A stretch of 64,000 nt of DNA from Leptospira sp. (GCA_034439575.1 JAWXAQ010000033.1:160001-224000), one strand, 5' to 3'. Shown: positions 6,816-47,808, numbered from the stretch's first letter. The notes: a model not told the origin generated them from the letters alone. Made by a program: numbers and translations.

Positions 6816-6861
6816 ATTTTTTTTTAGCGAAATAGACTTGATACAACTCTAAGTATTAGAT

Positions 6862-7464
6862 ATGAAGATCTCTATGACTCAAATCATTCGAAGAATTTCC
6901 CTAGCGTTCATTCTGTTTGCACTTGTTAGCAATTGCGGCTATAACCGTATCCAAGAATTGGATGAAGAGGTTACCGCATCATGGGCTGAAGTGTTGAATC
7001 AATACAAACGAAGAGACGATTTGGTGCCAAACTTGGTAGCAGCGACTAAGGGTTTTGCTAAACAAGAAAAAGAAATCATGCAAGGAATTGCTGATGCTCG
7101 TTCCAAACTCGGTTCAATCCAAGCAACCCCAGAATTATTAAGAGACCCAGAAGCCTTTAAAAAATTTACACAAGCACAAGGTGAGTTAGGTTCTTTTCTC
7201 GGAAGGTTGATGTCGATTCAAGAAAATTATCCTGAGTTAAAATCAAGCCAGCTTTTTTCAGATCTAACAGCACAGTTGGAAGGCACAGAAAATCGTATAA
7301 CAGTAGCTAGAAACAGATTTATCAAAGCTACCAAAGATTATAATATTTTTATACGTCAATTTCCTCAAGTGTTGACTGCCAAGGCTTTTGGTTATGATTC
7401 TAAACCAACCTTTACAGTTGAAGATGAGAAAAAAATCGAAAATGCACCTAAAATAGAATTCTAA
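6862..7464 (+). CDS. lemA: LemA family protein (probable lipoprotein)
   Basis: NCGYN, WAEV..QYKRR.DLVPNLV, ENYPELKS, LEGTENRITVAR; start may be the second Met. Confidence 0.92.
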   Translation: MKISMTQIIRRISLAFILFALVSNCGYNRIQELDEEVTASWAEVLNQYKRRDDLVPNLVAATKGFAKQEKEIMQGIADARSKLGSIQATPELLRDPEAFKKFTQAQGELGSFLGRLMSIQENYPELKSSQLFSDLTAQLEGTENRITVARNRFIKATKDYNIFIRQFPQVLTAKAFGYDSKPTFTVEDEKKIENAPKIEF

Positions 7465-8891
7465 AACTGAAAGTAAACGAAAGGACTAGATACAGCGACG
7501 CTATAAATTAGAAAAGCTGTTACATACATTATCGAACAAATAGTGTAAAGTATCAGTGGACGCTCCATGATAAAATCAAAAGCGTCCTCTTTGTTATTTT
7601 GGACTATATCCACAAAAAATAAAAATCCTATCACACCTATCAATTCAATCGGAACTGTGATACCTTTTCCTTCAGTAAATGCAAATGCTTGGCCAAGCAT
7701 TTGAAAGGAAACATTGATTCCAAGAGGGATGGATTCTGTTGGTCTGGCGCGAAAGAAAAAGATAGCTATAAGAAATATGGAAAGGGGATAAATCGGTTGT
7801 AGCCATCGAGGGACTTTTTCCCAAGCATCTCGCATAACTTTAAATTTAAAAACAAATTTTTCTACAACCATCATAAAGGCGTGAGTGGCTCCCCAGAGAA
7901 CATAAGTCCAATCTGCACCATGCCAAATTCCAGAAACAAAGGTTGTAATAAATAAATTGATAAAAGAGAAAAGTTCGCCCCTGCGATTTCCGCCAAGAGA
8001 GATATAAACATAATCTCTTAACCAAGAAGAAAAAGATATATGCCAGCGTCGCCAAAGTTCCGTTAAGGTTCCTGAAAGGTAGGGCCTGTCAAAATTTTTA
8101 GGAATATGAAATCCTAAAATTCGACCCGTCCCAATGGCAATGTCCGAATAACCTGAGAAGTCACAATAAATTTGAACTCCAAAAAGTATAGCCGCTATCC
8201 ATAAAGTAGAGCCACTATAAATAGTGGGATCGGCAAATATTGGATCTATAATCGCTGTTATAGGATCAGCAATAAAAGTTTTTTTGAATACACCCCAGAA
8301 AAATTGTTTGAGACCTTTGTTTAGATTGTCTTTTTGGAACTCTTTCGGCTCTAAAAATTGGTGCAATACATCACTGGCACGTAATATCGGGCCTGCAACT
8401 AATTGTGGAAAAAATGCCAAAAATAAACCAAAGTGAAAAATTGACTTCGCTGGTTTGACTACACCCCTGTAAACATCTACTGCATAGGAAACTGCTTGGA
8501 GTGTAAAAAAACTAATGCCCATAGGTAGGATTACTCCCACCAAAGGGATGTAATTCGGATCACAAACTTCTCGCCCTAAAAAAAGATTGATGGATGCGAT
8601 CGAGAAATCCAAATATTTGAATGCAAAAAGTAATCCAAGATTTCCCCAGATAGAAACGGAAAGCCAAAAGAATTTTAGATTTTGTTTATCCGTTTTTTCC
8701 ATCGCATCGACAGCAAGTTTAGTTAATACGAAGGAAAAGATGAGTAAGATTAAAAATGGAATTTTAAAAATGGCATAAAAATATAAACTAACAAGAAATA
8801 GGAGGATTCCTTGAAATCTTTTTGGTATTGTAAAGTATAATAGAATGACTATTGGAGCAAAAATAAAGTAATGCGTTGAATTAAATAACAC
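7461..8891 (-). CDS. MBOAT family O-acyltransferase (AlgI/PatA/DltB-like)
   Basis: MLFNS, LPMGISFFTLQ, FFPQLVAGPI, DFSGYSDIAIG, WRRWHISFSSW, GIWHGA, C-terminal FVYFQF. Confidence 0.93.
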   Translation of the reverse strand: MLFNSTHYFIFAPIVILLYFTIPKRFQGILLFLVSLYFYAIFKIPFLILLIFSFVLTKLAVDAMEKTDKQNLKFFWLSVSIWGNLGLLFAFKYLDFSIASINLFLGREVCDPNYIPLVGVILPMGISFFTLQAVSYAVDVYRGVVKPAKSIFHFGLFLAFFPQLVAGPILRASDVLHQFLEPKEFQKDNLNKGLKQFFWGVFKKTFIADPITAIIDPIFADPTIYSGSTLWIAAILFGVQIYCDFSGYSDIAIGTGRILGFHIPKNFDRPYLSGTLTELWRRWHISFSSWLRDYVYISLGGNRRGELFSFINLFITTFVSGIWHGADWTYVLWGATHAFMMVVEKFVFKFKVMRDAWEKVPRWLQPIYPLSIFLIAIFFFRARPTESIPLGINVSFQMLGQAFAFTEGKGITVPIELIGVIGFLFFVDIVQNNKEDAFDFIMERPLILYTICSIMYVTAFLIYSVAVSSPFVYFQF

Positions 8892-10139
8892 TTAGTTTTC
8901 TGCTCCAAGTTCTTTTTTTATAGAATCGGCCACCCATTGATTTCCTAACTTTGTTAGATGTCCATCGCCTGGAATAAAATAATCTCTTATTTTTGTTTTA
9001 AAAGATTTATCATTTATGACCGTATCTGTTCCGCACATACTTTTGGTATATTTGGTTAGATCAATAAGTGGAACACCTTTTGATTCCCAATACTTTTTAG
9101 CACGTATTGCATAATTACCAAGAGGATGATATTTTCCATTTAGATAACAATAAATTTCTTCGACTTGCACGGGTATGGCGACGGGTCTCAATCTGAAATT
9201 GTGTTTTTTGCTAAGCTCCAACATCTTTTCGTAAGCGCCAATGGTCGTCGGAGTTAATTCTGGTAAGGTGTTCGGATTTGGAGCTTTGTCCAAACAGGTA
9301 AATTCATTTGTCGGAATCGGTTCTGGACAGATATGAGGATCAATATATGTATCCCCCTTACACTTTTTCTTATGAACCGTAAAAAAGAATGTATCATGTA
9401 AATATTCTAAAGGAGAAAAAATAGCCGAAGTAATTTCCTTTTTCCCTGCCAATTTATTTTGCGCCCAAATAATGACTGTTTGTTCATACGCTAACTTTAA
9501 TGCTTGTAAGAAAAAAGATATACGTGTGGCTTCAAACTGGAGTTTAAAGTTTTGTTTCCAATTCGGGTCATTTTCATGAATGGCATCCAGTTCATCATCT
9601 GGCAAAATGCCTTGATTTCTTAATACTTCTGGCATGGCAAAATCATTGGGCGAAATAAAGAATAAAACCTCTCTAACATTCGTTACTTTTTGCGAAATGT
9701 CTTCCAGCCTTTTGGCATCTCCCAGTGAACCATAGGCGTCCACACCTAAATTTAAAGTTTGATATGTTGTGCCTTGGATAGAAACACCATTTAACAAAGA
9801 ACAAAATGTTTCTTGATCAGAGACCCCAAAACCCATAACCATACTATCCCCAAGACAGAAAATCTTATAAGTTGCGGGATTTGGTTCTTCTAGTCCTCTT
9901 AAGCCCAGTGAATTTGTCGTAAATTGACCTTCCCATAAGCCTGCATGGTGTTTTACAAATCGACTCTCGTTTGCTTGCAGAGTCACGCCGTAGTCTTTGT
10001 GATAGGCATGAAGAAGTTTTACATCCCTATAATATTGTAATGAAGGAGGATTGAGGATTCGTAATGTGAATTCTACGCCTGCGATGGTGATTAGAAAAAA
10101 TAGTCCAAGAAAAACTATTTTTCGCAAAAACAACTTCAT
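8892..10139 (-). CDS. SGNH/GDSL hydrolase-family protein, N-terminally anchored (AlgJ/PatB-like partner)
   Basis: GDSM block I, NLGVDAYG, PND, DGH near C-terminus; abuts MBOAT gene. Confidence 0.8.
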   Translation of the reverse strand: MKLFLRKIVFLGLFFLITIAGVEFTLRILNPPSLQYYRDVKLLHAYHKDYGVTLQANESRFVKHHAGLWEGQFTTNSLGLRGLEEPNPATYKIFCLGDSMVMGFGVSDQETFCSLLNGVSIQGTTYQTLNLGVDAYGSLGDAKRLEDISQKVTNVREVLFFISPNDFAMPEVLRNQGILPDDELDAIHENDPNWKQNFKLQFEATRISFFLQALKLAYEQTVIIWAQNKLAGKKEITSAIFSPLEYLHDTFFFTVHKKKCKGDTYIDPHICPEPIPTNEFTCLDKAPNPNTLPELTPTTIGAYEKMLELSKKHNFRLRPVAIPVQVEEIYCYLNGKYHPLGNYAIRAKKYWESKGVPLIDLTKYTKSMCGTDTVINDKSFKTKIRDYFIPGDGHLTKLGNQWVADSIKKELGAEN

Positions 10140-10205
10140 CCTTCTAAATTTTTAGAATTCGCTAGAGAAGCAAGCATTTAGAGAGATATGTAAGAGTTTT
10201 GAAAT

Positions 10206-10886
10206 CTATAAAATCTTTTCTATGAGCAAATAGAAAAAAGAAAGGTTTCCTAAATATTGAATCATAATAAGGAAACCAATACCAATTTGAATGATATAAG
10301 GACTTCCAGAAAAACCTTGGTAGGCGAGATAAGAAACTATACCAAGTATGATTTCTGGTATCAGTACATAGATTGCCATTCCAGAAAAACTTTTTACATT
10401 TTGTGCATACCACGAGCCCAAAGAACTAGAATACGCTTCCGCAATTCCAAAAATAAGTAGGGAAAAAATTCCCACCCAAAGGCAAGTCCCGATAATCGAA
10501 ACTGATCTTTCTTCCAATTTAATCCCTGTATAAACAAGAATAAACAAGGGGATCGACCATAATCCAGCCATATATCCCGACACAGTGCCAATTTTGAAAA
10601 ATCCATCTTCAGGAAAAACTAACACCTTTAATACGGATGACAAAAACCAATCGGGAAAAACCATAAGAACTGATAAAGGAAGCAAAAATTTCCAAATCCG
10701 AAAGGGTGCATAAAATCTAAATATTTTTGCGACGGCTACGAATGTTATATGATAAAAAATGGTTAGATAAAATAATTTCCAGCCCTGCGAAAATTCAGAA
10801 AATCGTAAAAACAGAAAGGCAATGAGGGAATAAAAAGCAAAGTAACAGGCTAGGAGAGATTCTTCTAGAAAAATGAACTTTTTCAT
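10206..10886 (-). CDS. Hypothetical polytopic membrane protein
   Basis: 226 aa with about six hydrophobic segments. Confidence 0.7.
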   Translation of the reverse strand: MKKFIFLEESLLACYFAFYSLIAFLFLRFSEFSQGWKLFYLTIFYHITFVAVAKIFRFYAPFRIWKFLLPLSVLMVFPDWFLSSVLKVLVFPEDGFFKIGTVSGYMAGLWSIPLFILVYTGIKLEERSVSIIGTCLWVGIFSLLIFGIAEAYSSSLGSWYAQNVKSFSGMAIYVLIPEIILGIVSYLAYQGFSGSPYIIQIGIGFLIMIQYLGNLSFFYLLIEKIL

Positions 10887-11032
10887 ATATCACCACGAAA
10901 TCTAAAATTGAATCTCCGAAAATCAATCTAATTTATTAAGCGGAATATTAAAATTTAGCTCTTCGTTTAAGTTTAGATAAAACTAAGGATTTATGGATTT
11001 AGTATAATTCTTAAGGAAGTCTAATGCGCGTC

Positions 11033-11110
<78 letters not shown>

Positions 11111-11124
11111 AACGTAGTACCAAT

Positions 11125-12432
11125 TCACCACGATAGCCTTTGGCGTAAAGTCGGTTTTGCCCTATGGTCGAAGTGACGAAAGTATTTAAAAAACGTATCT
11201 TCTAAATTAAACTTGTTTTTGTTCTCTTTTTTGCCAATGAGTACCAACCGATCTTTAGCGCGAGAAATTCCGACATAGAGAATTCTGCGTTCTTCTTCCA
11301 AATTTTGGATGTTTGCCTGTTCTGGAAGATTCCATCCCGAACTTAAATCAAGGATCACTGTCCCAAATTCCAAGCCCTTGGCGGCATGAATGGTCATAAT
11401 TTGATTTGGTTCTATACCAATATCAATCCATTCCTTTTTACGAAAATTTGACCTAACGAGTATTATAGAATCCGAATCAGTTTCAAACAATGATTTTAAG
11501 ATTGGTAATAAGGACTTCCGATCAGACTTTGGGTTTTCTAATACATACTTTTGAAAAGAGGTTTCGCCCAAACGAAATGCCCTGACATCCTTTTCTATCT
11601 TTCGTTTATTTTTAACTAAGGCTAAAGTGGATAATTCAATAATACCCTTCAGAGAACGATAGTTTGTTGATAAGGTAAATTGTTTTGTCTTTGGAAAATA
11701 CTTTGGAAAAGTTAAAAATGGTTCTGGTGTCGCTCCCCTGAATCCATATATGGCTTGCCAATCATCGCCTACGATTGTTATATTTTCCGGATCCATAAAC
11801 TTTAAGATATTTAATTGGGAAAAATCAGTATCTTGAAATTCATCTACGATAATATGATCAAACCTTTCTTTAAGGTTACGAGTCCAAGAAACCTTGGCGC
11901 TTAAATTTTCTTCTACTATTCGAGGTAAATCTTCAAATTCAAATTTATGAATTTTGTTTTTCCACTCTTCCAATGCTTTTGCATAGGAAGAATAAATTTC
12001 AGGATATTCTTTCCTAAAGAAAAAAGAATCTTTTTGGAATAATACAGGGAAGGGTATGCCTCCGATTTGAAATTTATAATTTTGAAGAAAATCAATAGAA
12101 AACTTTTCTTTTTCCTCTGAACTCAATATCTTCATCGGATTCGTTTTGTAATAGGGATGGAATTCCAAAATCGATCGAAAACAAAATGCATGAAACGTAG
12201 AGACATTATAATTTTTTGATAATGAATTCTTCTCTATTCTATGTTTAAATTCATCTGTAGCTTTGTTTGTAAATGTAACAACTAAGGTGCGATCTGGAGC
12301 GATTTTTCCTTTGTTCTCGGATTCACGCAAAAGTCCTATCATCGTAGCCGTTTTTCCTGAACCTGCAGCAGCTATAATCTGTTTGTGGCTATGGGTAGAT
12401 TCGATAATAGTTAATTGTTCCTCATTCCACAC
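11125..12432 (-). CDS. Compact UvrD/PcrA/Rep-family SF1 helicase
   Basis: AAAGSGKT, VTFTNKA, TFHAF, VDEFQD, GDDWQAIYGFRGA, NYRS, TIHAAKGLEF, EERRILYVGISRA. Confidence 0.9.
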   Translation of the reverse strand: MWNEEQLTIIESTHSHKQIIAAAGSGKTATMIGLLRESENKGKIAPDRTLVVTFTNKATDEFKHRIEKNSLSKNYNVSTFHAFCFRSILEFHPYYKTNPMKILSSEEKEKFSIDFLQNYKFQIGGIPFPVLFQKDSFFFRKEYPEIYSSYAKALEEWKNKIHKFEFEDLPRIVEENLSAKVSWTRNLKERFDHIIVDEFQDTDFSQLNILKFMDPENITIVGDDWQAIYGFRGATPEPFLTFPKYFPKTKQFTLSTNYRSLKGIIELSTLALVKNKRKIEKDVRAFRLGETSFQKYVLENPKSDRKSLLPILKSLFETDSDSIILVRSNFRKKEWIDIGIEPNQIMTIHAAKGLEFGTVILDLSSGWNLPEQANIQNLEEERRILYVGISRAKDRLVLIGKKENKNKFNLEDTFFKYFRHFDHRAKPTLRQRLSW

Positions 12433-12481: not shown

Positions 12482-14020
12482 TTATTTTTGACGTTTCTCT
12501 AAATTGATTATGGCTTCTCTTTTTTTGATAGAAAGACGCAAGTATTCAATCGCAGTTTTATCAGTCGGATCTATCAATAGTACTTTTTCAAATTGATGGA
12601 TAGCTTCATCATAATTTCTATTTTGGTATTCTTCGATGCCATTTTGAGAAAGTGCTGAAATTTGATGATGTTCCTTTTTTCTTAAAGAATCTAATTCTGC
12701 CTTCGAATTTGTGTTTTGTGGAAATGTGTGCAATGAATCCAAATAGGCACGTATAGAATCAAATATATTTCCTTGGTTTCGATAGGTATTTGCCTTACTT
12801 CGTTCTTTTTCACTTTGATAGATCAGTGAATTTTGAATCCCTTCCTTTGCAATTGTTAGATTGGGATTGATACTAAGAGCCTTTTGAAATTCTAATTTCG
12901 CTACCGTATAATTTCCAGAATCAAAATTTGATTTTGCCTTAGCTAAAATATCTTTTATTTTTGAACCTGATAATTTTTCTAAAGCCAATTGTTGGTAAGC
13001 TAATGCCGTTTGATTTGTGGGATCATCTTTTAGTATATTATCAAAAACAGCCTTACTAGATTTCCACTTCTCTTCGTTTAACAATTGCAATCCGATTGAA
13101 AAAAGTTTACTTTTTTTGGCTCTTTCTGAAATCGCTTTCGGGATTGAGATATTTGACTCTTTAGCAAAATTTTCATTTAACAAAAAGTTGAAATGTTTTG
13201 GAAGATGAACCCCTTCATTTTCGCAAGTTGATTTCATACTTAGTATGGAATTTACTATCTCGCCAGTCTCGATACCTATTTTTGTATAATCTGCACTGAT
13301 TCCAAACGTAGCACCAGATTTAACTAAAGCAGGAAAGGAACTCATTAGAATAATCGAATTTTCTTTACTAAATTTTGATATAACTTCAAAATTTTCCGCA
13401 TTATAAAGTGGATCTGAAGGAATGTACAATGCATCTGGCAATTTTGTAATATCTTTTAAATCTTTCAGAAAGGAATCCGATGATGACTTTTTTTTCTTAA
13501 AATACATTTTGTTTTTTAGATCAAAATGTTCGCCTTCTTCTGAAGAAAATTCTCCTTCTATATTCGAGTAAAAAGAATAAATGATTTTTGATTTAGGATT
13601 TATATCTTTTAAAGTGATAAAAAAAGATTCCAATGGCACATCCATACTAACGCCACATAAACGGGAAGACTCAAGGTCAAGACCTTTGGGAAAGGAAACC
13701 ATAGAAAAAACGATAGGAATTTTGTGAGTATTTTCCTCTGCAATCCTAGTTGCTCCTTTTCCGATTGTAATAATAAGAGGGATTCCTTTATTTTCTAATT
13801 CTTGAAAGTACGTCGCGGGTGAATCATACTCAGCTAATATTATATCCAAATAATTTACATGAATCTCTCGATTAATGCTCGTTTGTATTCCGAATAGGGC
13901 TTGTTCGTAAATTGAGTTGTCAGAAGTTAATAGAATTTCAATTGGTTTATTTGCGTCGGATAAAAGTTTTGAAACATTGAATGATATGAAAAGGCCTAGA
14001 AAAACAATTGTTTTAAGCAT
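12482..14020 (-). CDS. Exported ABC_sub_bind-like (periplasmic binding fold) protein with C-terminal TPR repeats
   Basis: Signal peptide; IITIGKGA, IPIVFSMVSFP, GVS, DALYIPSD, LVKSGATFGISADY..IG.ETG; TPR motifs (FQKALSINPN, FEKVLLIDP). Confidence 0.75.
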   Translation of the reverse strand: MLKTIVFLGLFISFNVSKLLSDANKPIEILLTSDNSIYEQALFGIQTSINREIHVNYLDIILAEYDSPATYFQELENKGIPLIITIGKGATRIAEENTHKIPIVFSMVSFPKGLDLESSRLCGVSMDVPLESFFITLKDINPKSKIIYSFYSNIEGEFSSEEGEHFDLKNKMYFKKKKSSSDSFLKDLKDITKLPDALYIPSDPLYNAENFEVISKFSKENSIILMSSFPALVKSGATFGISADYTKIGIETGEIVNSILSMKSTCENEGVHLPKHFNFLLNENFAKESNISIPKAISERAKKSKLFSIGLQLLNEEKWKSSKAVFDNILKDDPTNQTALAYQQLALEKLSGSKIKDILAKAKSNFDSGNYTVAKLEFQKALSINPNLTIAKEGIQNSLIYQSEKERSKANTYRNQGNIFDSIRAYLDSLHTFPQNTNSKAELDSLRKKEHHQISALSQNGIEEYQNRNYDEAIHQFEKVLLIDPTDKTAIEYLRLSIKKREAIINLEKRQK

Positions 14021-16491
14021 TATTTTGCCCTTCCTGTTTTAGATTTTTCCCTTTCTATGGATTCAATTCTTTTGATTGCTTGTTTGAATTTTGGATCTAA
14101 GGCTAAACATTTTTGCCATTTCTCTATGGCTTTTGTTTGGTCCTCTAATAGAAAATATACATTGCCGATTTGGTAGATATTATCTATGTCTTTAGGATCA
14201 AGAACTTCTGCTTTTAGATAGTATTTTAAGGATTCTGAATATTTTTTTAATCTGAATAGTCGATCTCCTATTTGAATGGCTTCCATTTTTTGGTCATCTG
14301 GGCTTTTTCTCGAAATCTCACCAAATTGAAGTTCTGCGTCAATTATGGAATTGTTTTTGGAATTCAGAGTATTTAATATTTCTTTGGCCCGTGCGTGATT
14401 AGGATTAATTAGAAATACTTTTTCTATGACTGTTTTCGCCCTTACAAAAATTCCTAAATCAATATGAATTTCCGCCAAATTGATAAGATTTGGAATGTGA
14501 TTTGGGTCACGAAGTAATAGTCGCTCTCCGAAATCTGCCGCTTCCGCCTTTTTACCCCAGTAGAGGAATGCCTTTGACACCTGAAAGATAGCATCATTAT
14601 CAATAGGATTGAGGCTTAAATATTGCGTATAACATTCTATAGCTTTGTCCCATTGTTTGATTTCCATATATCCTTGGCCAAGAAGATTTAAGAGTGCTGG
14701 AAATGGTTTTTTATTTGATAGAATTTTATTTAAATAAGTAATCGCATCTTTGGTTTTGCCTGATTCTATTAGGGAATGGCCATGTTCAATTGTCGAATTT
14801 TGTTCGTTAGTTGGAATGGTATCTTTGATATAATTGATTGGTTCATCAAAAGAAATTTTTATTAATGAAATATCATCATATAATTTTCCAAACATTTTTA
14901 TCTTTTCTAAAATACTTTTTAAATCGCCTTTTCCTTCTTCTACTCTTTTTAGAAATTGATTTCCGTCTTCATTAATCATTTCTATATTTTCATCATAACC
15001 GATAATCAAATCATCTCGACCATCTGAGCCTGTTATGATTTGATCCCCTGGGTACAATTGAAAAGTTTTGATAAAAAAACGATTTTCTTGTCCTGGAGTT
15101 CCAATTTTACATAAATCAACATTGCCTTCTAAAAAACTAGCTTTACCATCTCTATACAATACCGTCCAAGGATGTTCGGCATTCATATAATACAGAAGCC
15201 CCGTTTCATTTTCTACAAGACCTATACATACAGAAATGTACATGGTCCCGTCAAATGACAAAAATACATTTTGTAAATCCAAGAATCTTTCTTTCAGCCA
15301 TGTTTCTGGAAATAACAAAGTTTGTGCATAGGTTCTCGAACGAATGAGTCCAGCGTTGAATACAACACCTAAGGCAAGTGCGCCGCCAGCACCTTGGATA
15401 GACTTGCCCATAGCATCAGCATTCAAAAAAACTGTATAATTTTTATCCCTTAATTTGATCGTATCGGTGATACAGATGTCTCCACCAATTTGTGATTCCC
15501 AACTTCGAAACGAAAATTTCTTTTTTTGTTCGGTTATGAATTCGGTTTTTACATTTTTTGAAAAGTTATTGTTAGATGACAGAGGTTCAAGTAATAGCGA
15601 TGTGAGATAATAATCTCCGTCTTGTGCTTCCTTTAATGCCTTAACTTCTTCCAAACTTTGATTCAATTCGTCAGTTCTTTCTAATACTTTTTTCTCAAGA
15701 TGCTGAGTGAAATCTTGAATTTTTTCCCCCATTAAATTGAAAGCATGTGCCAATTGACCGATTTCATCTTTTCCTTTAAGGTTAATTCTGTGACTAAAAT
15801 CTCCCGTTCCCAGTTTTTGTGCCCCTTCATTTAATACTTGTAAGGGTAGGGACAATGATATGGAAAGAAATAGAGCGATGCCTATTCCTATAACAAAGAG
15901 GATGGCCGCAGAAAAGAATATAGAATTTCTCAAATCAACAATCGGAGAAAAAATTTCATCAGAGTTAAATTCAAAAACAGCAGTACCAATGCGCATATTT
16001 TTATCCCGATATTTAATATATATGGGATAGGCAAATTCTAGTATGGATCCAAATTCATGTTTGATTTCTCGTGAGGTAAGGCTTGTTAAATTTGAAAAAT
16101 ATTCAAAATTTCCATTGGAAACTATTTGGTCCTTATTTTGTGAATTGAGGCGTGCGACGATATTGCCATCTAGATTAATAATGTATGTGTCTTTTAAGGC
16201 ACGAACATTAGAATCTTTTAATTTTGTCAAAGCAGAATTTGTGGCTTCAAAAGTATCACCAACTAACAACTCATCATCTGCAATTTTTGCTATGTTATTT
16301 GCTATGTTTCGACAAACTTCATATGTTTTTTCAATTACTATACCTTTGTTTTTGAAATATACAATTGTGGAAAGTGGGATGACACAGAGGACAACGATAC
16401 CTGATACCAAGAGCACCATCTTCGTTCGGAGTTTCGTATTCTCGAGTAGATGAAAGTGAGACTTCTCCATGCCTATGATCCGACCAATCAT
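14020..16491 (-). CDS. Membrane sensor: 2 TM + periplasmic domain + HAMP + PP2C/SpoIIE phosphatase + TPR repeats
   Basis: HAMP (PL..L......G.GDF...DEIGQLA.AFN.M), GGD, DAMGK, SDG, DDIS; C-terminal TPRs. Confidence 0.88.
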   Translation of the reverse strand: MIGRIIGMEKSHFHLLENTKLRTKMVLLVSGIVVLCVIPLSTIVYFKNKGIVIEKTYEVCRNIANNIAKIADDELLVGDTFEATNSALTKLKDSNVRALKDTYIINLDGNIVARLNSQNKDQIVSNGNFEYFSNLTSLTSREIKHEFGSILEFAYPIYIKYRDKNMRIGTAVFEFNSDEIFSPIVDLRNSIFFSAAILFVIGIGIALFLSISLSLPLQVLNEGAQKLGTGDFSHRINLKGKDEIGQLAHAFNLMGEKIQDFTQHLEKKVLERTDELNQSLEEVKALKEAQDGDYYLTSLLLEPLSSNNNFSKNVKTEFITEQKKKFSFRSWESQIGGDICITDTIKLRDKNYTVFLNADAMGKSIQGAGGALALGVVFNAGLIRSRTYAQTLLFPETWLKERFLDLQNVFLSFDGTMYISVCIGLVENETGLLYYMNAEHPWTVLYRDGKASFLEGNVDLCKIGTPGQENRFFIKTFQLYPGDQIITGSDGRDDLIIGYDENIEMINEDGNQFLKRVEEGKGDLKSILEKIKMFGKLYDDISLIKISFDEPINYIKDTIPTNEQNSTIEHGHSLIESGKTKDAITYLNKILSNKKPFPALLNLLGQGYMEIKQWDKAIECYTQYLSLNPIDNDAIFQVSKAFLYWGKKAEAADFGERLLLRDPNHIPNLINLAEIHIDLGIFVRAKTVIEKVFLINPNHARAKEILNTLNSKNNSIIDAELQFGEISRKSPDDQKMEAIQIGDRLFRLKKYSESLKYYLKAEVLDPKDIDNIYQIGNVYFLLEDQTKAIEKWQKCLALDPKFKQAIKRIESIEREKSKTGRAK

Positions 16492-16539
16492 TGAATCCGT
16501 AAAAGTTAAGTTGTAAAGGAAAAAAGAGTAAAGGGAAAA

Positions 16540-19368
16540 TTAAAATTTATAACCGAGGCTGATCCAAATATTTCGTCTTTCTAATGGGTGTTGAGTAGGG
16601 TAATACTCTCCAGTCGCAGCGCGAATTCCTGGGTCAAAAAATTGTTGGTTTAGAATATTGTTTGCTTGGATTTGTAAAAACATTCCCTCTTTAATAAAAT
16701 CCTCCCAACGAAAGTTGATTCTAAACATTTCATAGCCGGCCACACTCCCTGTAGGATTTGTTGCAATTGTTCGTCTAACATCAACGTAGTTTGTCCCAGC
16801 ATAAATCGAAATTTTGGATCTAATATAATAAGTGATTCCTAAATAACCTTTGTGTGGTGCTATATTTGGGATATTTCCTCTGGATGGAACTCTATTTAAA
16901 CCTGTCAATTCTTTGTATAATAAATTTTCTAAATCATCTTTATAATTTGCACCTAAGCGACCTTCGGTTGAGGGGGATGTTTGTAAACTAGCGGGAAGAT
17001 CATAATAATAACCTTGCGCATAAGTATAATTGAAATTGATGCTAATATTTTTGCGAACAGTCCAAACGGATTCTGATTCAATTCCAAATATATTGGCACG
17101 CCCTACGTTTTGATTTTGTAACCACGGATTGCGTGGAGAAATATTATTGATGATCGAAGAATCAGTAGTTTGAACTTGTAAAATTAAGTCTGATATAGCA
17201 TTGTAATAAGCCTGTGCGGATGAATAAAAATCTTTTGTGAATCTATATGCTACTCCGACTTCTACAGATGAAAGTTTTTCTGGAGTTAAACTCGCATTAG
17301 GCTTTCTTTGTTGCGTTTGTGAAAAAAGTTCAATTGCTGATGGTTCTCGGAAGGCACGACCAAGCAAAAATTTAAAAGTTAAATCTCTTGTTGCTTGATA
17401 AATGGCACTCACTCTCGGAGTACTTGCATATCCGTATGTCGTAATATAGTCACGTCTGAACCCAAAAGTGAGAGAAAGTTTTTCTACGGGTCGGTAGACT
17501 TGCTGCAAGTAAAGTGCATAGTTTGAATATTGATAGCGATCTGAACTTCCATAATCTTTTCCTACTACGAAATGTCTTGCAGATACTCCGAATATTGTAG
17601 ATATTTTTGATGTTGGATTCCAGTTTAACCTTGATTCACCGAAGTATCCATAATCTGGTCTAGAATAATTGTTTGATCTTGTAACATCTGTGGAACGGTA
17701 ATAGGCACCAGGGTCGGTTTGGTTTGGATATTCTTCTTTGCTTGAATTTAATACATCAGAATTTCTGATGATACCTTCTGTATCTAATGACAATGTTTCG
17801 CTTATTTTGTGATTGTAACCGACTAACATAGAGTTACTTTTGAAATCCCAAGCCGAACCTTGAAATCCGGGGACACCAAGTCCTCCCTGTCTTCTTGTGT
17901 CGATTTGTTGCGTACCATTCGGAAATGTTCCTTGCCCTTGTAAGTATTGCCAATTGACTGTTTCGAAACGAAATCCCCCCTTAGAAAATTTAGCTGTTAT
18001 GTTGTAAGTTTTTTCTTTGGAAACATTATATCCTGGACTCCAAAAATAACCGACTGAATTAGAATCGGGATTGCACATAGTATTTCCGCATAAATCGCGG
18101 GAAAATTTATAGAATGGATCAAATTTATAATTATAATTTGGATTGTCTTTTGTTGCTCCATTTTGTTTGGGATCAAGGGAATTTATATTCGCCATATTAG
18201 GACCATCTGTTTGGTAATAATAACCAAACACGCTATAGGACATTGGACTGGATCCTTCGGAGGCTCCCCTTGCGGAAAAACTCGCGGATGCACCTGGGTT
18301 TGAAAAGGAATTTGCCTTTGTTGCTTCATAAGAGCCCCATGTAACATCAACATGATTTCCGGGATTTGTCGCTCCATCTTTCATTATTATGTTGATGATT
18401 CCATTGAACGCATTTGCACCATACAAAGCCGATGCGGGTCCCGATATGATTTCTATTCTCTCTACATTGTTTAATGGAAACCTGACGCTTCCAGCTAACA
18501 TTGCATTTTCATTTAAATTATTGTCTGGTATACCGTCCACATAGAGTAGGGTCCTTTGCATACCACCAACTAATCCTCGTTGGTGGATGAGTTCTGGGTA
18601 AATTCCATAATTGTGTTGAAAGTCCATGCCTGGGACATCATGCAATGCGTCGGATAAAGTTCGGTAACCTCGTTCTTTGATATGTTGAGACGAGATGACA
18701 TAGATGGCTGCTGGAGCCTCTTTCAATTTTGTTTTGGTTCTTGTCGCTGTAATGACTTCTGTCTCTTCTAAAAGTTTAAATATTTCTTGGGCTTCTTTTT
18801 GGATGTCTTGTTTTTGAATCGGAAATTCAATTTGTTTTGCAATTGGTGTTTGAAGTAAATATTCATTAATATTTTCGGAATTAATTTTAGCATTAGGATT
18901 TAGTTTGATTCGGATCACCAAACGATTAATAAACTTTTCTATAATTTTTGCATCCGATTCTTGTGTTTCATCTTTTGGAATATTTAATCCTTCCAATTCT
19001 TGTGAATGATCTGTTTGGTTCATGGCATCTATCAGTAATCCGGATTTTGTCGCATAGATTTGTCCATATAGATTCAATACATTACTTTCGCTCCTTTGGT
19101 AGTATCCAGAAATCATAATGGCGTCTTCAGATTTATATTCTGAATTATCTATGGATATCGATTTGCTATTTTCTATAAGTATAATCGTATATCCTAATTT
19201 TTGCAGTTCAACTTTTGTTTTTTGTTGGATAGTTTCCGAAACAACTGAGTCGGTTTTAGATTGGAAAGGAGAAAAAGTTTTAATATAAATGATTCTTTCG
19301 GCTACAGGTACAGTGTGCACCGCAGTCGAAAGAGAAATAAAAAGAAGGCACAGGCGAATCCACTTCAT
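16540..19368 (-). CDS. TonB-dependent receptor with long N-terminal extension
   Basis: EVITATRT..LKEAPAAIYVI plug start, ERIEIISGPASALYGANA..GIINI, C-terminal LGYKF; ATG at 19368 preferred over the ORF-track start at 19386. Confidence 0.9.
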   Translation of the reverse strand: MKWIRLCLLFISLSTAVHTVPVAERIIYIKTFSPFQSKTDSVVSETIQQKTKVELQKLGYTIILIENSKSISIDNSEYKSEDAIMISGYYQRSESNVLNLYGQIYATKSGLLIDAMNQTDHSQELEGLNIPKDETQESDAKIIEKFINRLVIRIKLNPNAKINSENINEYLLQTPIAKQIEFPIQKQDIQKEAQEIFKLLEETEVITATRTKTKLKEAPAAIYVISSQHIKERGYRTLSDALHDVPGMDFQHNYGIYPELIHQRGLVGGMQRTLLYVDGIPDNNLNENAMLAGSVRFPLNNVERIEIISGPASALYGANAFNGIINIIMKDGATNPGNHVDVTWGSYEATKANSFSNPGASASFSARGASEGSSPMSYSVFGYYYQTDGPNMANINSLDPKQNGATKDNPNYNYKFDPFYKFSRDLCGNTMCNPDSNSVGYFWSPGYNVSKEKTYNITAKFSKGGFRFETVNWQYLQGQGTFPNGTQQIDTRRQGGLGVPGFQGSAWDFKSNSMLVGYNHKISETLSLDTEGIIRNSDVLNSSKEEYPNQTDPGAYYRSTDVTRSNNYSRPDYGYFGESRLNWNPTSKISTIFGVSARHFVVGKDYGSSDRYQYSNYALYLQQVYRPVEKLSLTFGFRRDYITTYGYASTPRVSAIYQATRDLTFKFLLGRAFREPSAIELFSQTQQRKPNASLTPEKLSSVEVGVAYRFTKDFYSSAQAYYNAISDLILQVQTTDSSIINNISPRNPWLQNQNVGRANIFGIESESVWTVRKNISINFNYTYAQGYYYDLPASLQTSPSTEGRLGANYKDDLENLLYKELTGLNRVPSRGNIPNIAPHKGYLGITYYIRSKISIYAGTNYVDVRRTIATNPTGSVAGYEMFRINFRWEDFIKEGMFLQIQANNILNQQFFDPGIRAATGEYYPTQHPLERRNIWISLGYKF

Positions 19369-19497
19369 AAATTTTGCCAGCGCCAATCCTATCGGAATTG
19401 AGAAATCTTGTCATGCCCGAATATTTAGGACTTATGATTTTATTCCCGATTTCGAATTTTTATTTTTAAATCTCTGAAATCGAATATTCATGCAATT

Positions 19498-21957
19498 TTA
19501 GAGATTGATTGTGACACCAAAATTGACCTGGCGAAAGAGCCCTGGTTGAATTCCTTCTGGTAACCGAGTAGAGATATATTTTTGATCCAAAAGATTTTTA
19601 CCTGTTAGAAAAACAGACCATTTCTCTCTTTTATATCCTATACTTGCATGGACTAATTCATAGGCAGGGATCACACCATTTGTTCCATCAGCATCTGATC
19701 GAATCGAGTTATAATCAAGTAATGATTTAATATTGCTATCTGATGAAGCAGTGTCATACCAATAAACTCCGCGCGTATTCTGAAGGTCATGGTATTGTTT
19801 TGAGAAGTGTTGCCATTCGGCACGGACATAAAATCCTGTTTTCATAATTGCACCTAACGCAATCGTCATCACATCTTTCGATACATATGGTAACCAATTT
19901 CCATTTGTATCGATATGAACAAGTGGATTACTATTTCCTTTCGCCCATTCACTTAAATTATAAGTGTATTGATTAGATTTTGCTTCGTTACGCGAATAAA
20001 TTAAATCCAATGGAACATTGAAATTCCAATTGAAAAAATTACCAAAATCAAATGTAAGATTTGTTTCCACTCCCTTATGTTGTGACCTACCTGCATTGAC
20101 AGGTCTTGCACCCAAGTTCCCACCAGCCGCAGAACTATTGATAATTTGATCTTGAAAATCTAACAGATATCCTACGATCTGCATATTTAAATATTTTGTT
20201 AAATCTCCCCTAATACCTGTTTCATAGTTCCAAGATTTTTCTGCTTTCAGTGAAAGATCTTGTGCAGATGGAGATATGGCAGATTCATAACGAGGTGGGG
20301 AAAATCCTCTATGAACTCCAGAAAACCAAGTGAAATGATCTAAGATATCATAAGTGATTCCAAAACCGGGCAAGACGATTTGTTGTGTGGTTTTTCCTTC
20401 CCGGTCCATTTGGACTGTTGGATTTGTACCACTGGCATAATTAAAACTAACTTCATCAAAATTTTGTCGCCCTCGCATCATTAGACGGCTTTGTGAAAAA
20501 GATTCGTAACGAACACCAGGTATAATTGCAAACTTATCTGTTAGGCGGATTCTGTCTTGGATATATACAGAAATTGCTTTTGCATTTCTTTGTTCGTCAT
20601 CTCTAAGATCACCAGATTTTGAAAGGCTTGTGCGAGATTCGATTGGAACTATTGGGGTCGTGCCTGGTCCATTCGGAAATAAAACAGCGTCATATGTTCT
20701 AGGTCCTGTCAATAATTGGGCACGAGCGGAATCAAAATGATATCGAATTCCTGTATCTATCTCATGTTTGATGGATGCAGTATCAAATTCAAATTGTAGT
20801 TTTGTTTCAATTCCATAAAACTTATATGTTCTGTCTCTATGTGCATTTGTTCCACGCATCCAAACAGTATCGCCTAATCGACTTGTATATGGTTCACCAT
20901 CAAAAGTATTTAGTGTATCAGTGGGTCTTGCTGTTGTACGAGAAGAATTTCGCGTATATTCTTGACGTGCCCAATTTCTTTGTGTATAAGCTGAATACAC
21001 TCGTGTTATTAGGCGAGCATGATCAGAGAGTGTCCACTCATGACCGAGAGAAAATGAATACCTTTCAATAGTTCTCTTATCATTTTCTGCGGGATTGTCT
21101 TTGGGGTTATGTTGGTACATACCATTCGTCAAACCAATGTATGTAGCTTGAGATTCTTGTTGGTGAAATCCTACTTTTGTTGTAATGGAATGTTTATCCG
21201 TTAGTTGGTGGGTGGTTTTGAGATTTGCTTCATTGACCCAAAATCCTTGGTGATTTCTGAATCCATCTCCTTGTTTGCGGAGGACATTGATATCAAAGCC
21301 AGTATTTCCAAATGTGCCACCGTAATTTACCATGTTTGATACATACCCGTTTTCACCACCTATTGCTTGCAAGGAGAGTGTTGGGTCCTTAGGTGGTTTT
21401 CGCGTGATAAAATTTACAACGCCTCCAATGGTTGATGGTCCAAATAAAATAGATCCTGATCCTTTTACAATTTCGACTCTCTCCATTCTTTCTATGGATG
21501 GCGCATAATACATTTCAGGTTCGCCATAAGGATTGAGAGAGGTAAATAGCCCATCTTCCAAAACTAAAATTTTTCTAGAGACTTCGTTGCTGATTCCGCG
21601 AAAGCCTAAGTTCATAGTTAAACCAGCCGCGTCTTGATAACGGACGTTAGCTCCAGGGACTCTTCGCAGAACTTCCATTCCATCTGTGGGACGAGTTTCT
21701 TCTAAAAATTTTTTGCCAATAATAGTCGCTGAACCTGGGATTCGTTTTAGATCCTTTTTTTCACCTATGACAGTAATTTCGGCTTTTTTCCAACGTGGGT
21801 CATCAACATTGATGATTTCTTCCTCTTTGGCCGGATCCTTAATTTCAGGCTCAGTTTTATCCGCCGGTTTTTCTGGATTTGTCGTCGTCGGTTGTGCGAT
21901 TAATGTTTGGCAAAGAAAGAATGTAGTCAGTAGCAAAGAAATTCGCTTTAAAACCAT
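19498..21957 (-). CDS. TonB-dependent receptor, FecA-like (probable iron uptake)
   Basis: EITVIG TonB box, LRRVPG, ERVEIVKGSGSILFGPSTIGGVVNFIT, KNLLDQKY; Fur-like boxes upstream. Confidence 0.9.
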   Translation of the reverse strand: MVLKRISLLLTTFFLCQTLIAQPTTTNPEKPADKTEPEIKDPAKEEEIINVDDPRWKKAEITVIGEKKDLKRIPGSATIIGKKFLEETRPTDGMEVLRRVPGANVRYQDAAGLTMNLGFRGISNEVSRKILVLEDGLFTSLNPYGEPEMYYAPSIERMERVEIVKGSGSILFGPSTIGGVVNFITRKPPKDPTLSLQAIGGENGYVSNMVNYGGTFGNTGFDINVLRKQGDGFRNHQGFWVNEANLKTTHQLTDKHSITTKVGFHQQESQATYIGLTNGMYQHNPKDNPAENDKRTIERYSFSLGHEWTLSDHARLITRVYSAYTQRNWARQEYTRNSSRTTARPTDTLNTFDGEPYTSRLGDTVWMRGTNAHRDRTYKFYGIETKLQFEFDTASIKHEIDTGIRYHFDSARAQLLTGPRTYDAVLFPNGPGTTPIVPIESRTSLSKSGDLRDDEQRNAKAISVYIQDRIRLTDKFAIIPGVRYESFSQSRLMMRGRQNFDEVSFNYASGTNPTVQMDREGKTTQQIVLPGFGITYDILDHFTWFSGVHRGFSPPRYESAISPSAQDLSLKAEKSWNYETGIRGDLTKYLNMQIVGYLLDFQDQIINSSAAGGNLGARPVNAGRSQHKGVETNLTFDFGNFFNWNFNVPLDLIYSRNEAKSNQYTYNLSEWAKGNSNPLVHIDTNGNWLPYVSKDVMTIALGAIMKTGFYVRAEWQHFSKQYHDLQNTRGVYWYDTASSDSNIKSLLDYNSIRSDADGTNGVIPAYELVHASIGYKREKWSVFLTGKNLLDQKYISTRLPEGIQPGLFRQVNFGVTINL

Positions 21958-25144: not shown

Positions 25145-25202
25145 AATTTCAAGGTCGTAAATCTTGAGTGACAAGGAAAGTTCATTTCTGACAATCGAGG
25201 AA

Positions 25203-47448: not shown

Positions 47449-47808
47449 ATGCTCATTCAGACTCACTCTCAAGAAAACCACTTACTTTTTTCCATCCAAC
47501 GAGATATCCTTATGGAAAATTCTAGAGAGTTTTACCAAGAATTTGAAAAATCAATGGAAGGAAAAACATTCGGAAAAATTACACTTAATTTTGGTTCCGT
47601 AAAATTTTTGGATTCTTCTGGAATTGGTGCAGTCATCAAAGCTTCGTCAGCTCTTCACAACAAAGGCATAGAAATTTTTGTTACAAACTTAAATAAAAAT
47701 TTGAACTCTGTATTTCGCTTATCCGGTTTAAATCATATTCTATCTATTTTAACATTGGATGAATATCTTTCCAAGTTCCCTGAATTTAAAAAGGCTTTGG
47801 AGCCATAA
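47449..47808 (+). CDS. STAS-domain anti-sigma factor antagonist
   Basis: V.FLDSSGIG phosphoserine motif, VFRLSGL. Confidence 0.88.
   Translation: MLIQTHSQENHLLFSIQRDILMENSREFYQEFEKSMEGKTFGKITLNFGSVKFLDSSGIGAVIKASSALHNKGIEIFVTNLNKNLNSVFRLSGLNHILSILTLDEYLSKFPEFKKALEP

What the first reader, a model, noticed from the sequence alone, without database searches (positions are those of the whole stretch)
12482..19386. Candidate trans-envelope signalling system: extended TonB receptor + HAMP-PP2C-TPR phosphatase + orphan binding protein-TPR
Seen: three co-oriented, tightly spaced genes (48-nt gap, then a shared base at 14020). They encode an outer-membrane TBDR, an inner-membrane TM-periplasmic-TM-HAMP-SpoIIE-TPR protein and an exported ABC_sub_bind-like protein with TPRs. 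No ABC permease or ATPase, ECF sigma or FecR is nearby. Known: classical TBDR signalling uses FecR/FecI, and PP2C/SpoIIE enzymes dephosphorylate STAS anti-anti-sigma factors. Inference: the receptor imports or senses a ligand, the binding protein relays it to the membrane phosphatase, and the output is partner switching rather than transport. I know of no characterised example of this arrangement.
Basis: partly seen in the sequence, partly recalled or inferred. Interest (0 to 1): 0.8.

Follow-up and report, generated by a model that had tools for sequence, protein, structure and literature searches.

The report
Three-tier envelope sensor with phosphatase output
A freshwater Leptospira carries a conserved gene set for an outer-membrane receptor, a transporter-less periplasmic binding protein and a membrane phosphatase that most likely sense an outside molecule together, a new variant of a relay so far described only with a kinase output.

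Summary
Three tightly packed minus-strand genes encode: a TonB-dependent receptor (TBDR) with an N-terminal extension (NTE) of about 200 residues; a TM-Cache-TM-HAMP-PP2C-TPR phosphatase; and an exported PF04392-TPR binding protein.

They behave as one unit.
- The binding protein sits next to this sensor type in 20 of 22 informative loci across Leptospirales.
- Binding protein, sensor domain and NTE occur in the same 9 of 41 related genomes.
- Their trees share the main clades.
- The genome is 99.98% complete. It has only two PF04392 genes, both beside such a phosphatase, and no PF02653 permease.

The NTE models as a TolB-N/PelC/HpaA-like domain, not a FecA-type STN domain. The sensor domain models as WalK/LuxQ-like Cache. 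In three relatives with a short phosphatase, SiaB-like, SiaC-like and PAS-PP2C genes follow it. That supports a partner-switching output.

PahS/PahP/PahK of Cycloclasticus is a published TBDR-binding protein-kinase relay (PMC10570129). This locus is a new variant of it. Physical contacts, ligand and substrate remain unshown.

The parts
16540..19386 (-). TonB-dependent receptor with N-terminal extension (TBDR-A type). The ORF starts at TTG 19386; the likely start is ATG 19368, followed by a signal peptide.
   Evidence: ORF, translation, Pfam Plug plus barrel, start region. It is 73% identical to the receptor at the same position in Leptospira ognonensis (L022).
18889..19305 (-). NTE domain of the receptor (P0001 residues about 28-166): an alpha/beta fold like TolB-N, PelC and HpaA, located in the periplasm.
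   Evidence: AlphaFold2 model on 13 sequences, pLDDT 79.9, pTM 0.70. Foldseek: HpaA 8t8d E 3e-6, plus FlgT, TolB, LpoB and PelC. VIA-align: HpaA Z 10.1, PelC 9.6, TolB 1c5k 9.6. Conserved in 14 receptors. No Pfam STN match.
18724..18888 (-). Conserved helical linker (EVFxLLxE-type helix) and a TonB-box-like stretch (EVITATR) between the NTE and the plug.
   Evidence: Alignment; helices 164-202 in the model. Reading it as a TonB box rests on the recalled consensus, not on a tool.
18397..18726 (-). Plug domain of the receptor.
   Evidence: Pfam PF07715, residues 221-330, E 7e-23.
16543..17973 (-). Beta-barrel of the receptor, ending in ...GYKF.
   Evidence: Pfam PF00593, residues 472-910, E 2e-29; translation.
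14020..16491 (-). Inner-membrane sensor phosphatase: TM - Cache - TM - HAMP - coiled coil - PP2C/SpoIIE - TPR.
15922..16353 (-). Periplasmic single Cache/PDC sensor domain (residues 47-190).
   Evidence: Model with pLDDT 77.3. VIA-align: WalK extracellular domain 4ywz Z 15.0, rmsd 2.4, 140 aligned; LuxQ 2hj9_C Z 10.1. A profile of this region (residues 1-215, both membrane helices included) matches strongly only the 2 binding-protein-linked phosphatases of the genome, which has 48 SpoIIE matches; one further ORF matches weakly (E 1e-5).
15712..15867 (-). HAMP domain.
   Evidence: Pfam PF00672, residues 209-260, E 5e-14.
14848..15444 (-). PP2C/SpoIIE phosphatase domain. The Asp residues of the GGD338, D359, D490-G491 and D539-D540 motifs are all present.
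   Evidence: Pfam PF07228. These residues are invariant in 19 orthologues. Their role in metal binding is recalled knowledge of the PP2C family.
14032..14814 (-). Cytoplasmic TPR domain of the phosphatase. It is part of an output module shared by 13 paralogues in this genome.
   Evidence: Pfam TPR families; blastp of residues 286-823 against the genome's ORFs.
12482..14020 (-). Exported PF04392 (ABC_sub_bind) binding protein with a C-terminal TPR domain. Its start overlaps the phosphatase stop by one base.
13091..13948 (-). Type I binding-protein domain (residues about 25-310). C122 and C266 are invariant.
   Evidence: Pfam PF04392. PDB relatives 6hni, 3lft and 3lkv. Alignment A1.
12506..13063 (-). 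Periplasmic TPR domain of the binding protein (residues about 320-505), with a conserved EYLRLS motif near its end.
   Evidence: Pfam TPR_2/TPR_1. Conserved in all 10 aligned orthologues. All 16 database relatives carry PF04392, and 15 of the 16 also carry TPR families; the exception is a 391-aa partial record.

Best explanation
This is a three-tier envelope-spanning sensor.

Proposed mechanism:
1. The TonB-dependent receptor captures an external ligand and passes it inward, or reports its occupancy.
2. The exported PF04392-TPR protein has no ABC transporter. It acts as a periplasmic co-receptor: it binds the ligand and docks on the Cache domain of the membrane phosphatase.
3. HAMP transmits the change to the cytoplasmic PP2C domain.
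4. The PP2C domain dephosphorylates a small SiaC- or STAS-like phosphoprotein and so flips a partner-switching module. The cytoplasmic TPR domain probably recruits the substrate or its kinase.
5. The receptor's TolB-N-like extension and the binding protein's TPR domain are the likely contact points between the outer-membrane and periplasmic tiers.

Shown here: domain anatomy, conservation, co-occurrence, co-divergence, absence of the PF02653 permease family, intact catalytic motifs, and SiaB/SiaC-like neighbours in relatives.

Inferred: every binding step, the direction of regulation, the ligand and the substrate.
For: 1. Anatomy.

2. Synteny. I examined 24 distinct binding-protein loci: the window plus 23 others, after dropping 6 duplicate fetches (L027=L016, L028=L018, L034=L019, L035=L017, L037=L020, L041=L014).
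- The Cache-HAMP-PP2C gene is directly adjacent in 20 loci. It is absent in 2 (L021, L032). Two contigs are too short to tell (L024, L036).
- Orientation varies: tandem with overlapping stop and start, or divergent. Flanking genes differ.

3. An NTE receptor lies within 10 kb in 11 of the 24 loci. It lies 11-15 kb away in 3 more, and on other contigs in 1.

4. Phyletic profile over 41 genomes. Strong matches to the binding protein, the NTE and the sensor domain fall in the same 9 genomes, from 5 genera. Thirty-one genomes have none. One (G039) has a weak, divergent pair without an NTE.

5. Co-divergence. The clades (window, L022, L013, L014) and (L015, L040) recur in the binding-protein and sensor trees. 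They also recur in the TBDR-B tree, where the own-genome copy on contig C15 stands in for the window.

6. No ABC partner. PF04392 has 2 matches in the genome, both beside such phosphatases. PF02653 has 0, against matches in 12 of 14 control genomes.

7. Dedicated sensor domain. Only 2 ORFs in the genome match the sensor-region profile strongly, and both are the binding-protein-linked phosphatases (one further ORF matches weakly, E 1e-5). The genome has 48 SpoIIE matches.

8. The PP2C Asp motifs are invariant in 19 orthologues.

9. Output. In all 3 short-form loci (L019, L020, L033), three genes follow the phosphatase:
- A 159-197 aa gene. It matches DUF6272/slr1658/SiaB-like families in 2 of the 3 loci (L020, L033); the L019 gene matched no Pfam family and was not scanned against NCBIfam.
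- A 122-146 aa gene with weak SiaC matches (E 5e-4 to 3e-3, below the cut-off).
- A SpoIIE phosphatase gene of 402-415 aa. It carries a PAS domain in L019 and L033; L020 matched SpoIIE only.

10. Precedent. In PahS/PahP/PahK the binding protein binds both the receptor and the kinase, and the ligand shifts those affinities (PMC10570129, passages and sections 10 and 14).
Against: - No interaction was demonstrated.
- No RNA data exist for co-transcription.
- The window holds no SiaB/SiaC/STAS gene next to the trio. The nearest STAS match is about 28 kb away at 47458-47742. The genome has 27 STAS matches and one SiaB/SiaC pair on another contig, so the substrate is open.
- The long-form PP2C is a different subtype (ADAMGKS motif) from the short forms that sit beside SiaB/SiaC-like genes. 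Transferring the output from the short forms is therefore an inference.
- The receptor is not always adjacent. Three loci with full 10-kb flanks (L025, L031, L033) show none.
- Of the 3 NTE receptors outside binding-protein loci in relatives, only 1 has a signalling neighbour and 1 sits beside a GH31 glycosidase, like an ordinary nutrient importer. The own-genome copy on C15 is a fourth such receptor and lies beside a membrane cyclase.
- Related genomes are not independent, so the co-occurrence counts overstate the evidence.
Confidence: 0.6

Rival explanations
1. Import first, then sense, with no outer-membrane contact. The receptor is an ordinary TonB-dependent importer. The binding protein and Cache-PP2C sensor detect the imported ligand in the periplasm, as LuxP-LuxQ does. 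The NTE serves the receptor itself, for example by docking TonB/TolA or peptidoglycan, and takes no part in signalling.
For: - The phosphatase-binding protein pair is the invariant core, while the receptor's position varies.
- TolB-N, PelC and LpoB-like folds are common in envelope proteins that have no signalling role.
- One NTE receptor sits beside a GH31 glycosidase.
Against: - Strong NTE matches were found only in genomes that also hold the binding protein and sensor: 9 of 9, against 0 of 32.
- Two receptor lineages with different barrels keep the same NTE beside the pair.
- In PahS/PahP the binding protein does bind the receptor (PMC10570129).
Confidence: 0.22
2. Ligand-independent envelope-state relay, as in YfiB-YfiR-YfiN. 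The PF04392-TPR protein is a periplasmic regulator that holds the phosphatase in one state. The receptor's extension sequesters or releases it in response to envelope or TonB status rather than to a small ligand.
For: - It has the same three-tier layout: an outer-membrane protein, a periplasmic protein and an inner-membrane HAMP enzyme. The Yfi comparison is recalled, not tested here.
- All full-length members carry a TPR protein-binding domain.
- There is no transporter.
Against: - The PF04392 domain is kept whole and matches ligand-binding relatives over most of its length (6hni, 3lft, 3lkv).
- The solved members of this family bind L-Trp, L-Tyr or L-Phe (PMC10443332, Table 1).
- The receptor keeps a full plug and barrel.
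Confidence: 0.1
3. Transport system with an attached regulator. The binding protein hands the imported substrate to an unrecognised inner-membrane transporter. The phosphatase merely regulates uptake genes, or is an unrelated neighbour.
For: Databases name the protein an (oligo)peptide ABC transporter substrate-binding protein. PF04392 is classically an ABC binding-protein family.
Against: - There are 0 PF02653 matches in a 99.98% complete genome.
- No ABC gene lies in the scanned 7.4-28.6 kb. None turned up among the neighbours scanned in related loci, of which only a subset was scanned.
- Overlapping stop and start link it to the phosphatase.
- The pair is kept in 20 of 22 informative loci.
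Confidence: 0.06

Closest known systems
PahS/PahP/PahK/PahR cell-surface sensing system of Cycloclasticus sp. P1 (Wang et al. 2023, iScience, PMC10570129; I read the abstract, sections 10 and 14 and passages, not the supplements)
   Same: - The gene cluster runs TBDR -> periplasmic substrate-binding protein -> inner-membrane sensor.
- The binding protein serves signalling, not an ABC transporter.
- It is reported to bind both the receptor and the sensor and to shuttle the signal across the periplasm.
   Different: - The output is a histidine kinase with the GacA-like regulator PahR, not a PP2C phosphatase.
- PahS has 687 aa, which leaves no room for a 200-aa extension.
- PahP has 318 aa and no TPR domain.
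- It occurs in Gammaproteobacteria and senses PAHs.
- The paper does not say whether PahP belongs to PF04392, and I could not test it.
SiaABCD partner-switch pathway of Pseudomonas aeruginosa (PMC7647112, passages read)
   Same: - SiaA is a two-TM, HAMP, PP2C membrane phosphatase.
- It dephosphorylates the STAS-like SiaC, which is phosphorylated by the kinase SiaB.
- Short-form relatives of this phosphatase are followed by SiaB-like and SiaC-like genes.
   Different: - No binding protein or TBDR is known for SiaA.
- P0002 scores 63 bits against a cut-off of 700 for the SiaA model.
- The window has no adjacent SiaB/SiaC.
- The fourth gene in the relatives is a second SpoIIE phosphatase (with a PAS domain in 2 of the 3), not a diguanylate cyclase.
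FecA/FecR/FecI-type TonB-dependent transducers (cell-surface signalling; recalled textbook knowledge)
   Same: A TBDR carries a periplasmic N-terminal domain placed before the TonB box, in a locus with a signalling partner.
   Different: - The extension has a TolB-N/PelC-like fold, not STN. There is no PF07660 match.
- No anti-sigma or ECF sigma gene lies nearby.
- A soluble binding protein sits between the two membranes.
Sensors that depend on a binding protein: LuxP-LuxQ, TorT-TorS, ChvE-VirA, CBP-ChiS (recalled; LuxPQ structure 2hj9 matched; ChiS paper seen only as a search listing)
   Same: An orphan periplasmic binding protein docks on the periplasmic PAS/Cache-type domain of a membrane sensor encoded next to it.
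   Different: The outputs are kinases. No dedicated TBDR takes part. The binding protein has no TPR extension.
Chlamydia RsbU (PMC11619594; abstract in a search listing only)
   Same: It is a sensor PP2C phosphatase that heads a partner-switching mechanism.
   Different: No binding protein, receptor or TPR domain is described there.

Membership tests
TonB-dependent receptor | Plug domain plus 22-strand barrel domain | tested here: met
   PF07715 at 81.6 bits (cut-off 23.9) and PF00593 at 104.1 bits (cut-off 27).
TonB-dependent receptor | TonB box before the plug | tested here: inconclusive
   A conserved E-V-I-T-A-T-R-like stretch is seen in the alignment. I judged it against a recalled consensus only.
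FecA-type TonB-dependent transducer (cell-surface signalling) | STN (PF07660) N-terminal signalling domain | tested here: not met
   No STN match at E <= 0.01. The extension models as a TolB-N/PelC/HpaA-like fold.
FecA-type TonB-dependent transducer (cell-surface signalling) | Adjacent FecR-like anti-sigma factor and ECF sigma factor | tested here: not met
   None among the ORFs scanned between 7.4 and 28.6 kb.
PP2C/SpoIIE protein phosphatase | SpoIIE domain above the curated cut-off, with metal-binding Asp motifs | tested here: met
   PF07228 at 69.9 bits (cut-off 25). GGD338, D359, D490 and D539-D540 are invariant in 19 orthologues. The role of these motifs is recalled.
SiaA (NF038263) | Equivalog score and a siaBCD operon | tested here: not met
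   63.3 bits against a cut-off of 700. There is no SiaB/SiaC next to the gene. The single SiaB/SiaC pair of the genome is on contig C15.
PF04392 ABC transporter substrate-binding protein | Domain match above the cut-off | tested here: met
   61.6 bits (cut-off 25.9). PDB relatives 6hni, 3lft and 3lkv.
PF04392 ABC transporter substrate-binding protein | Cognate permease (PF02653) and ATPase in the operon or genome | tested here: not met
   0 PF02653 matches in the 99.98% complete genome, against 12 of 14 control genomes. None in the locus. That PF02653 is the usual partner of this family is recalled.
PahS/PahP/PahK-type three-tier sensor | Gene cluster of a TBDR, a periplasmic binding protein and an inner-membrane sensor | tested here: met
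   The same logic appears in PMC10570129.
PahS/PahP/PahK-type three-tier sensor | The binding protein physically binds both the receptor and the sensor | not testable with these tools
   This needs bench assays. No structure-prediction result here can be used for or against it.
PahS/PahP/PahK-type three-tier sensor | Histidine-kinase and response-regulator output; sequence homology to PahS and PahP | tested here: inconclusive
   The output here is PP2C, not a kinase.

The most novel reading that the evidence does not exclude
The TolB-N-like extension defines a new class of signalling TonB-dependent receptors. In this reading the extension, or the conserved helix just before the TonB box, binds the periplasmic TPR domain of the transporter-less binding protein. 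Ligand- and TonB-driven movement of the plug then releases or loads the binding protein. The binding protein switches a Cache-HAMP-PP2C phosphatase and, through it, a Ser/Thr partner-switching cascade. That would be cell-surface signalling without sigma and anti-sigma factors and without a kinase.
Probability: 0.3. Interest if true: 0.75.

Novelty: new variant of a known kind. Interest (0 to 1): 0.6.

Why it matters
TonB-dependent signalling is textbook only for the FecA/FecR/FecI type. A relay through a periplasmic binding protein has been described once, with a kinase output (PMC10570129). This locus suggests three further points:
- The same three-tier logic has been wired to a PP2C partner-switching phosphatase.
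- It uses two accessory modules not reported there: a TolB-N-like receptor extension and a TPR tail on the binding protein.
- The parts are inherited, duplicated and lost together.

It also gives an entry point into Leptospira signalling. This genome has 48 SpoIIE phosphatase matches and 27 STAS matches, and my searches found no paper that assigns them inputs.

There is a practical consequence as well. Databases name these proteins oligopeptide ABC transporter binding proteins, which is probably wrong.

Tried and rejected
- **Complex prediction.** I sent three chains: binding protein 22-512, Cache domain 47-190, and NTE 18-215 as the partner. The answer was 'no answer' (scores 0.05 and 0.14; the mark is 0.32), and the controls were not run. 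This says nothing either way.
- **RNA evidence.** No RNA holder was listed. The 20 holders are DNA metagenomes, so co-transcription could not be tested.
- **Promoter and terminator scan.** It found 36 promoter-like sites, against 44.9 expected from shuffles. No terminator-like site lies in the three intergenic gaps. This is not informative.
- **PDB sequence searches.** With the whole P0002, TPR proteins swamped the list. With the PP2C segment alone, no phosphatase was found.
- **Word-indexed homologue searches.** They reached only close relatives: 5 for the NTE and 15 for the binding domain. I therefore could not survey PF04392 neighbourhoods in other phyla.
- **Protein atlas.** The nearest clusters are TolB_N at 0.77, which is below the level that counts. 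I treat it as a lead only.
- **The small TPR protein beside the third NTE receptor.** I considered it as a TPR partner and dropped it, because it has no signal peptide.
- **The second receptor upstream (19498-21957).** I considered it as part of the system and rejected it. It has no NTE, and no counterpart lies in the L. ognonensis locus.
- **Alignment A4.** It held one wrongly cut row and was replaced by A5.
- **Literature searches for this arrangement.** None found a paper on a TBDR with a PF04392 protein and a PP2C phosphatase.

Full report
**1. Observation**

The three ORFs are real and lie on the minus strand:
- 16540-19386, 948 aa;
- 14020-16491, 823 aa;
- 12482-14020, 512 aa.

The first gap is 48 nt. 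The second and third genes overlap by one base in TAATG. The receptor most likely starts at the ATG at 19368, which gives a signal peptide.

Pfam gives these domains:
- Receptor: Plug and barrel. The first 200 or so residues match no family.
- Second protein: HAMP, SpoIIE and many TPRs.
- Third protein: PF04392 and TPRs.

NCBIfam gives only sub-threshold matches.

The ORFs scanned between 7.4 and 28.6 kb are housekeeping genes plus a second, plain receptor. One of them (8892-10139) matched no family. None is an ABC component, an ECF sigma factor or FecR. One 330-aa plus-strand ORF (25164-26156), an 83-aa ORF and five short ORFs that overlap larger ones were not scanned.

**2. The unit is conserved**

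A search of 41 related genomes with the binding protein found full-length matches in 9. One of these is a paralogous locus in the window's own genome. A tenth genome has only a weak, TPR-only match. A pattern scan of 185,579 species genomes returned 20 loci, all from Leptospirales.

After dropping six duplicate fetches, 24 distinct loci remain. A profile of the phosphatase's N-terminal sensor region finds that gene directly beside the binding protein in 19 of them. A 20th locus (L039) holds only the C-terminal part of the phosphatase, at a contig end. L021 and L032 lack it. L024 and L036 are too short to judge.

The pair is arranged either in tandem with overlapping stop and start, or divergently. 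The flanking genes differ between loci.

**3. The receptors**

Every receptor found beside the pair carries the same N-terminal extension, although the barrels fall into two lineages.

In Leptospira ognonensis, the closest relative, the order is TBDR-A, phosphatase, binding protein, TBDR-B, helicase. The window keeps TBDR-A. The sister of the L. ognonensis TBDR-B lies on another contig of the same genome (C15:36211-39024), beside a 7TMR-DISMED2 membrane cyclase.

Where the NTE receptor lies across the 24 loci:

| Position of the NTE receptor | Loci |
|---|---|
| Within 10 kb of the binding protein | 11 |
| 11-15 kb away | 3 |
| On other contigs of the same genome | 1 |
| Not seen within full 10-kb flanks | 3 |
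| Contigs too short to tell | 6 |

**4. Phyletic profile**

Over the same 41 genomes, strong matches to the binding protein, the NTE and the sensor domain fall in the same nine genomes, from five genera. Thirty-one genomes have none. One genome (G039) has a weak divergent pair without an NTE. In the window's own genus, 3 of 25 genomes have all three parts and 22 have none. Related genomes are not independent, so I use this as a pattern and not as a statistic.

The trees of the binding protein and the sensor share the clades (window, L022, L013, L014) and (L015, L040). The TBDR-B lineage shows the same clades, with the own-genome C15 copy in place of the window's receptor, which belongs to the TBDR-A lineage. 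This fits inheritance and duplication of the whole unit together. The first tree is a quick IQ-TREE run and the other two are FastTree.

**5. Not a transporter component**

The genome is 99.98% complete. It has two PF04392 matches, both next to such phosphatases, and no PF02653 permease match. PF02653 was found in 12 of 14 control genomes. Databases nevertheless name these proteins (oligo)peptide ABC binding proteins.

**6. Folds**

The NTE model (13 sequences, pLDDT 79.9) has an alpha/beta fold. Its best matches are HpaA (Z 10.1), PelC (9.6), the TolB N-terminal domain (9.6) and CsgG (8.4). Foldseek gives E 3e-6 to HpaA. These scores are moderately above the background of 7-8 that the tool quotes.

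A profile search of 1.84 billion representative proteins found only 84 proteins at E <= 1e-10. The full-length ones among the stronger hits are receptor-sized; many other hits are short fragments. The extension is therefore a rare module.

The periplasmic part of the phosphatase (pLDDT 77.3) is a single Cache/PDC domain. It matches the WalK extracellular domain at Z 15.0 and the LuxQ periplasmic domain at Z 10.1. In the window's genome this sensor-region profile matches strongly only the two phosphatases linked to a binding protein, with one further weak match at E 1e-5. The genome has 48 SpoIIE matches.

**7. Output**

The PP2C Asp motifs are invariant in 19 orthologues.

The long form found in the window (PP2C plus TPR, with the motif ADAMGKS) belongs to an output module shared by 13 paralogues that have other N-terminal parts.

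Three relatives carry a short form without TPR and with the canonical GDVSGHG motif. In all three, three genes follow it:
- a 159-197 aa gene that matches DUF6272/slr1658/SiaB-like families in two of the three (the L019 gene matched no Pfam family);
- a 122-146 aa gene with weak SiaC matches, below the cut-off;
- a second SpoIIE phosphatase, which carries a PAS domain in two of the three.

This is the gene logic of the SiaABC partner switch (PMC7647112, passages).

The window's genome has one canonical SiaB/SiaC pair elsewhere and 27 STAS matches. The substrate of this phosphatase is therefore not identified.

**8. What is known**

I read the abstract, sections 10 and 14 and several passages of that paper. 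According to it:
- pahS encodes a 687-aa TBDR, pahP a 318-aa periplasmic binding protein and pahK a histidine kinase, and the three form one gene cluster.
- PahP is reported to bind PahS and PahK.
- Ligand binding is reported to shift those affinities.

The three-tier principle is therefore published.

What differs here is the PP2C output, the TolB-N-like extension, the TPR tail on the binding protein, and the lineage. My searches found no paper on this combination.

I could not test that here.

**9. Mechanism and verdict**

The most likely reading is this chain of events. The receptor takes up or reports an external ligand. The binding protein carries the signal to the Cache domain. HAMP switches the PP2C domain, which resets a SiaC/STAS-type phosphoprotein. 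I give this a confidence of 0.6.

The main rival keeps the binding protein-sensor pair and treats the receptor as a plain importer (0.22).

The ligand is unknown. The solved PF04392 proteins bind aromatic amino acids (PMC10443332, Table 1), which is only a starting point.

No binding step has been shown, and no expression data exist. The finding is a new variant of a known kind. The best next step is to test it in cultured saprophytic Leptospira that carry the locus.

Noticed in passing
window 19498-21957 (-): A second, plain TonB-dependent receptor (819 aa, siderophore/FecA-like sub-threshold matches, no N-terminal extension) lies 111 nt upstream of the trio. It has no counterpart in the L. 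ognonensis locus.
   Followed up: partly
own genome, contig C15:36211-39024 (L042 6212-9025): A third NTE receptor, sister of the L. ognonensis TBDR-B, has moved away from the locus. It now lies divergent from a small cytoplasmic TPR protein and a 7TMR-DISMED2-7TM-adenylate/guanylate cyclase.
   Followed up: partly
window 53008-55029 (-) and 47458-47742 (+): The window also holds a 7TMR-DISMED2-7TM-SpoIIE phosphatase and a 119-aa STAS ORF. Genome-wide there are 48 SpoIIE, 27 STAS and 21 HATPase_c_2 matches.
   Followed up: partly
own genome, 13 ORFs (for example C27:303827-306964 and C8:67262-69658): A PP2C-TPR output module with the unusual motif ADAMGKS in place of GDVSGHG is shared by 13 paralogues that have different N-terminal parts. 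They may converge on a common substrate.
   Followed up: partly
L021 (G040) 3635-12301: In one relative the binding protein follows two NTE receptors. After it come a multi-pass membrane protein (194 aa) and a class III cyclase domain protein (258 aa), not a phosphatase. The matching sensor phosphatase is on another contig.
   Followed up: partly
L046 (G033:C32) 7833-11827: An NTE receptor 44% identical to the window's overlaps the start of a cytoplasmic PAS-HisKA-HATPase_c kinase (359 aa).
   Followed up: no
G039:C1:3050132-3051788 (L010): A divergent pair: a TPR-only match to the binding protein lies next to a weak match to the Cache sensor (E 4e-16), in a genome with no NTE receptor.
   Followed up: no
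window 11125-12432 (-): A short UvrD-like helicase (435 aa) follows the locus. The same gene follows it in G024 and L. ognonensis, so it marks the ancestral right-hand border.
   Followed up: partly
protein P0089: A 1175-aa protein from the representative library matches a 60-residue piece of the NTE profile 13 times, as a repeat protein.
   Followed up: no
L016 7703-9090 and L043 (G038): In the Leptonemataceae-type loci, the 11-15 kb between the binding protein and its two NTE receptors holds exported proteins of unknown function. Among them are a 127-aa signal-peptide protein and a Lepto_7_Nterm protein.
   Followed up: no
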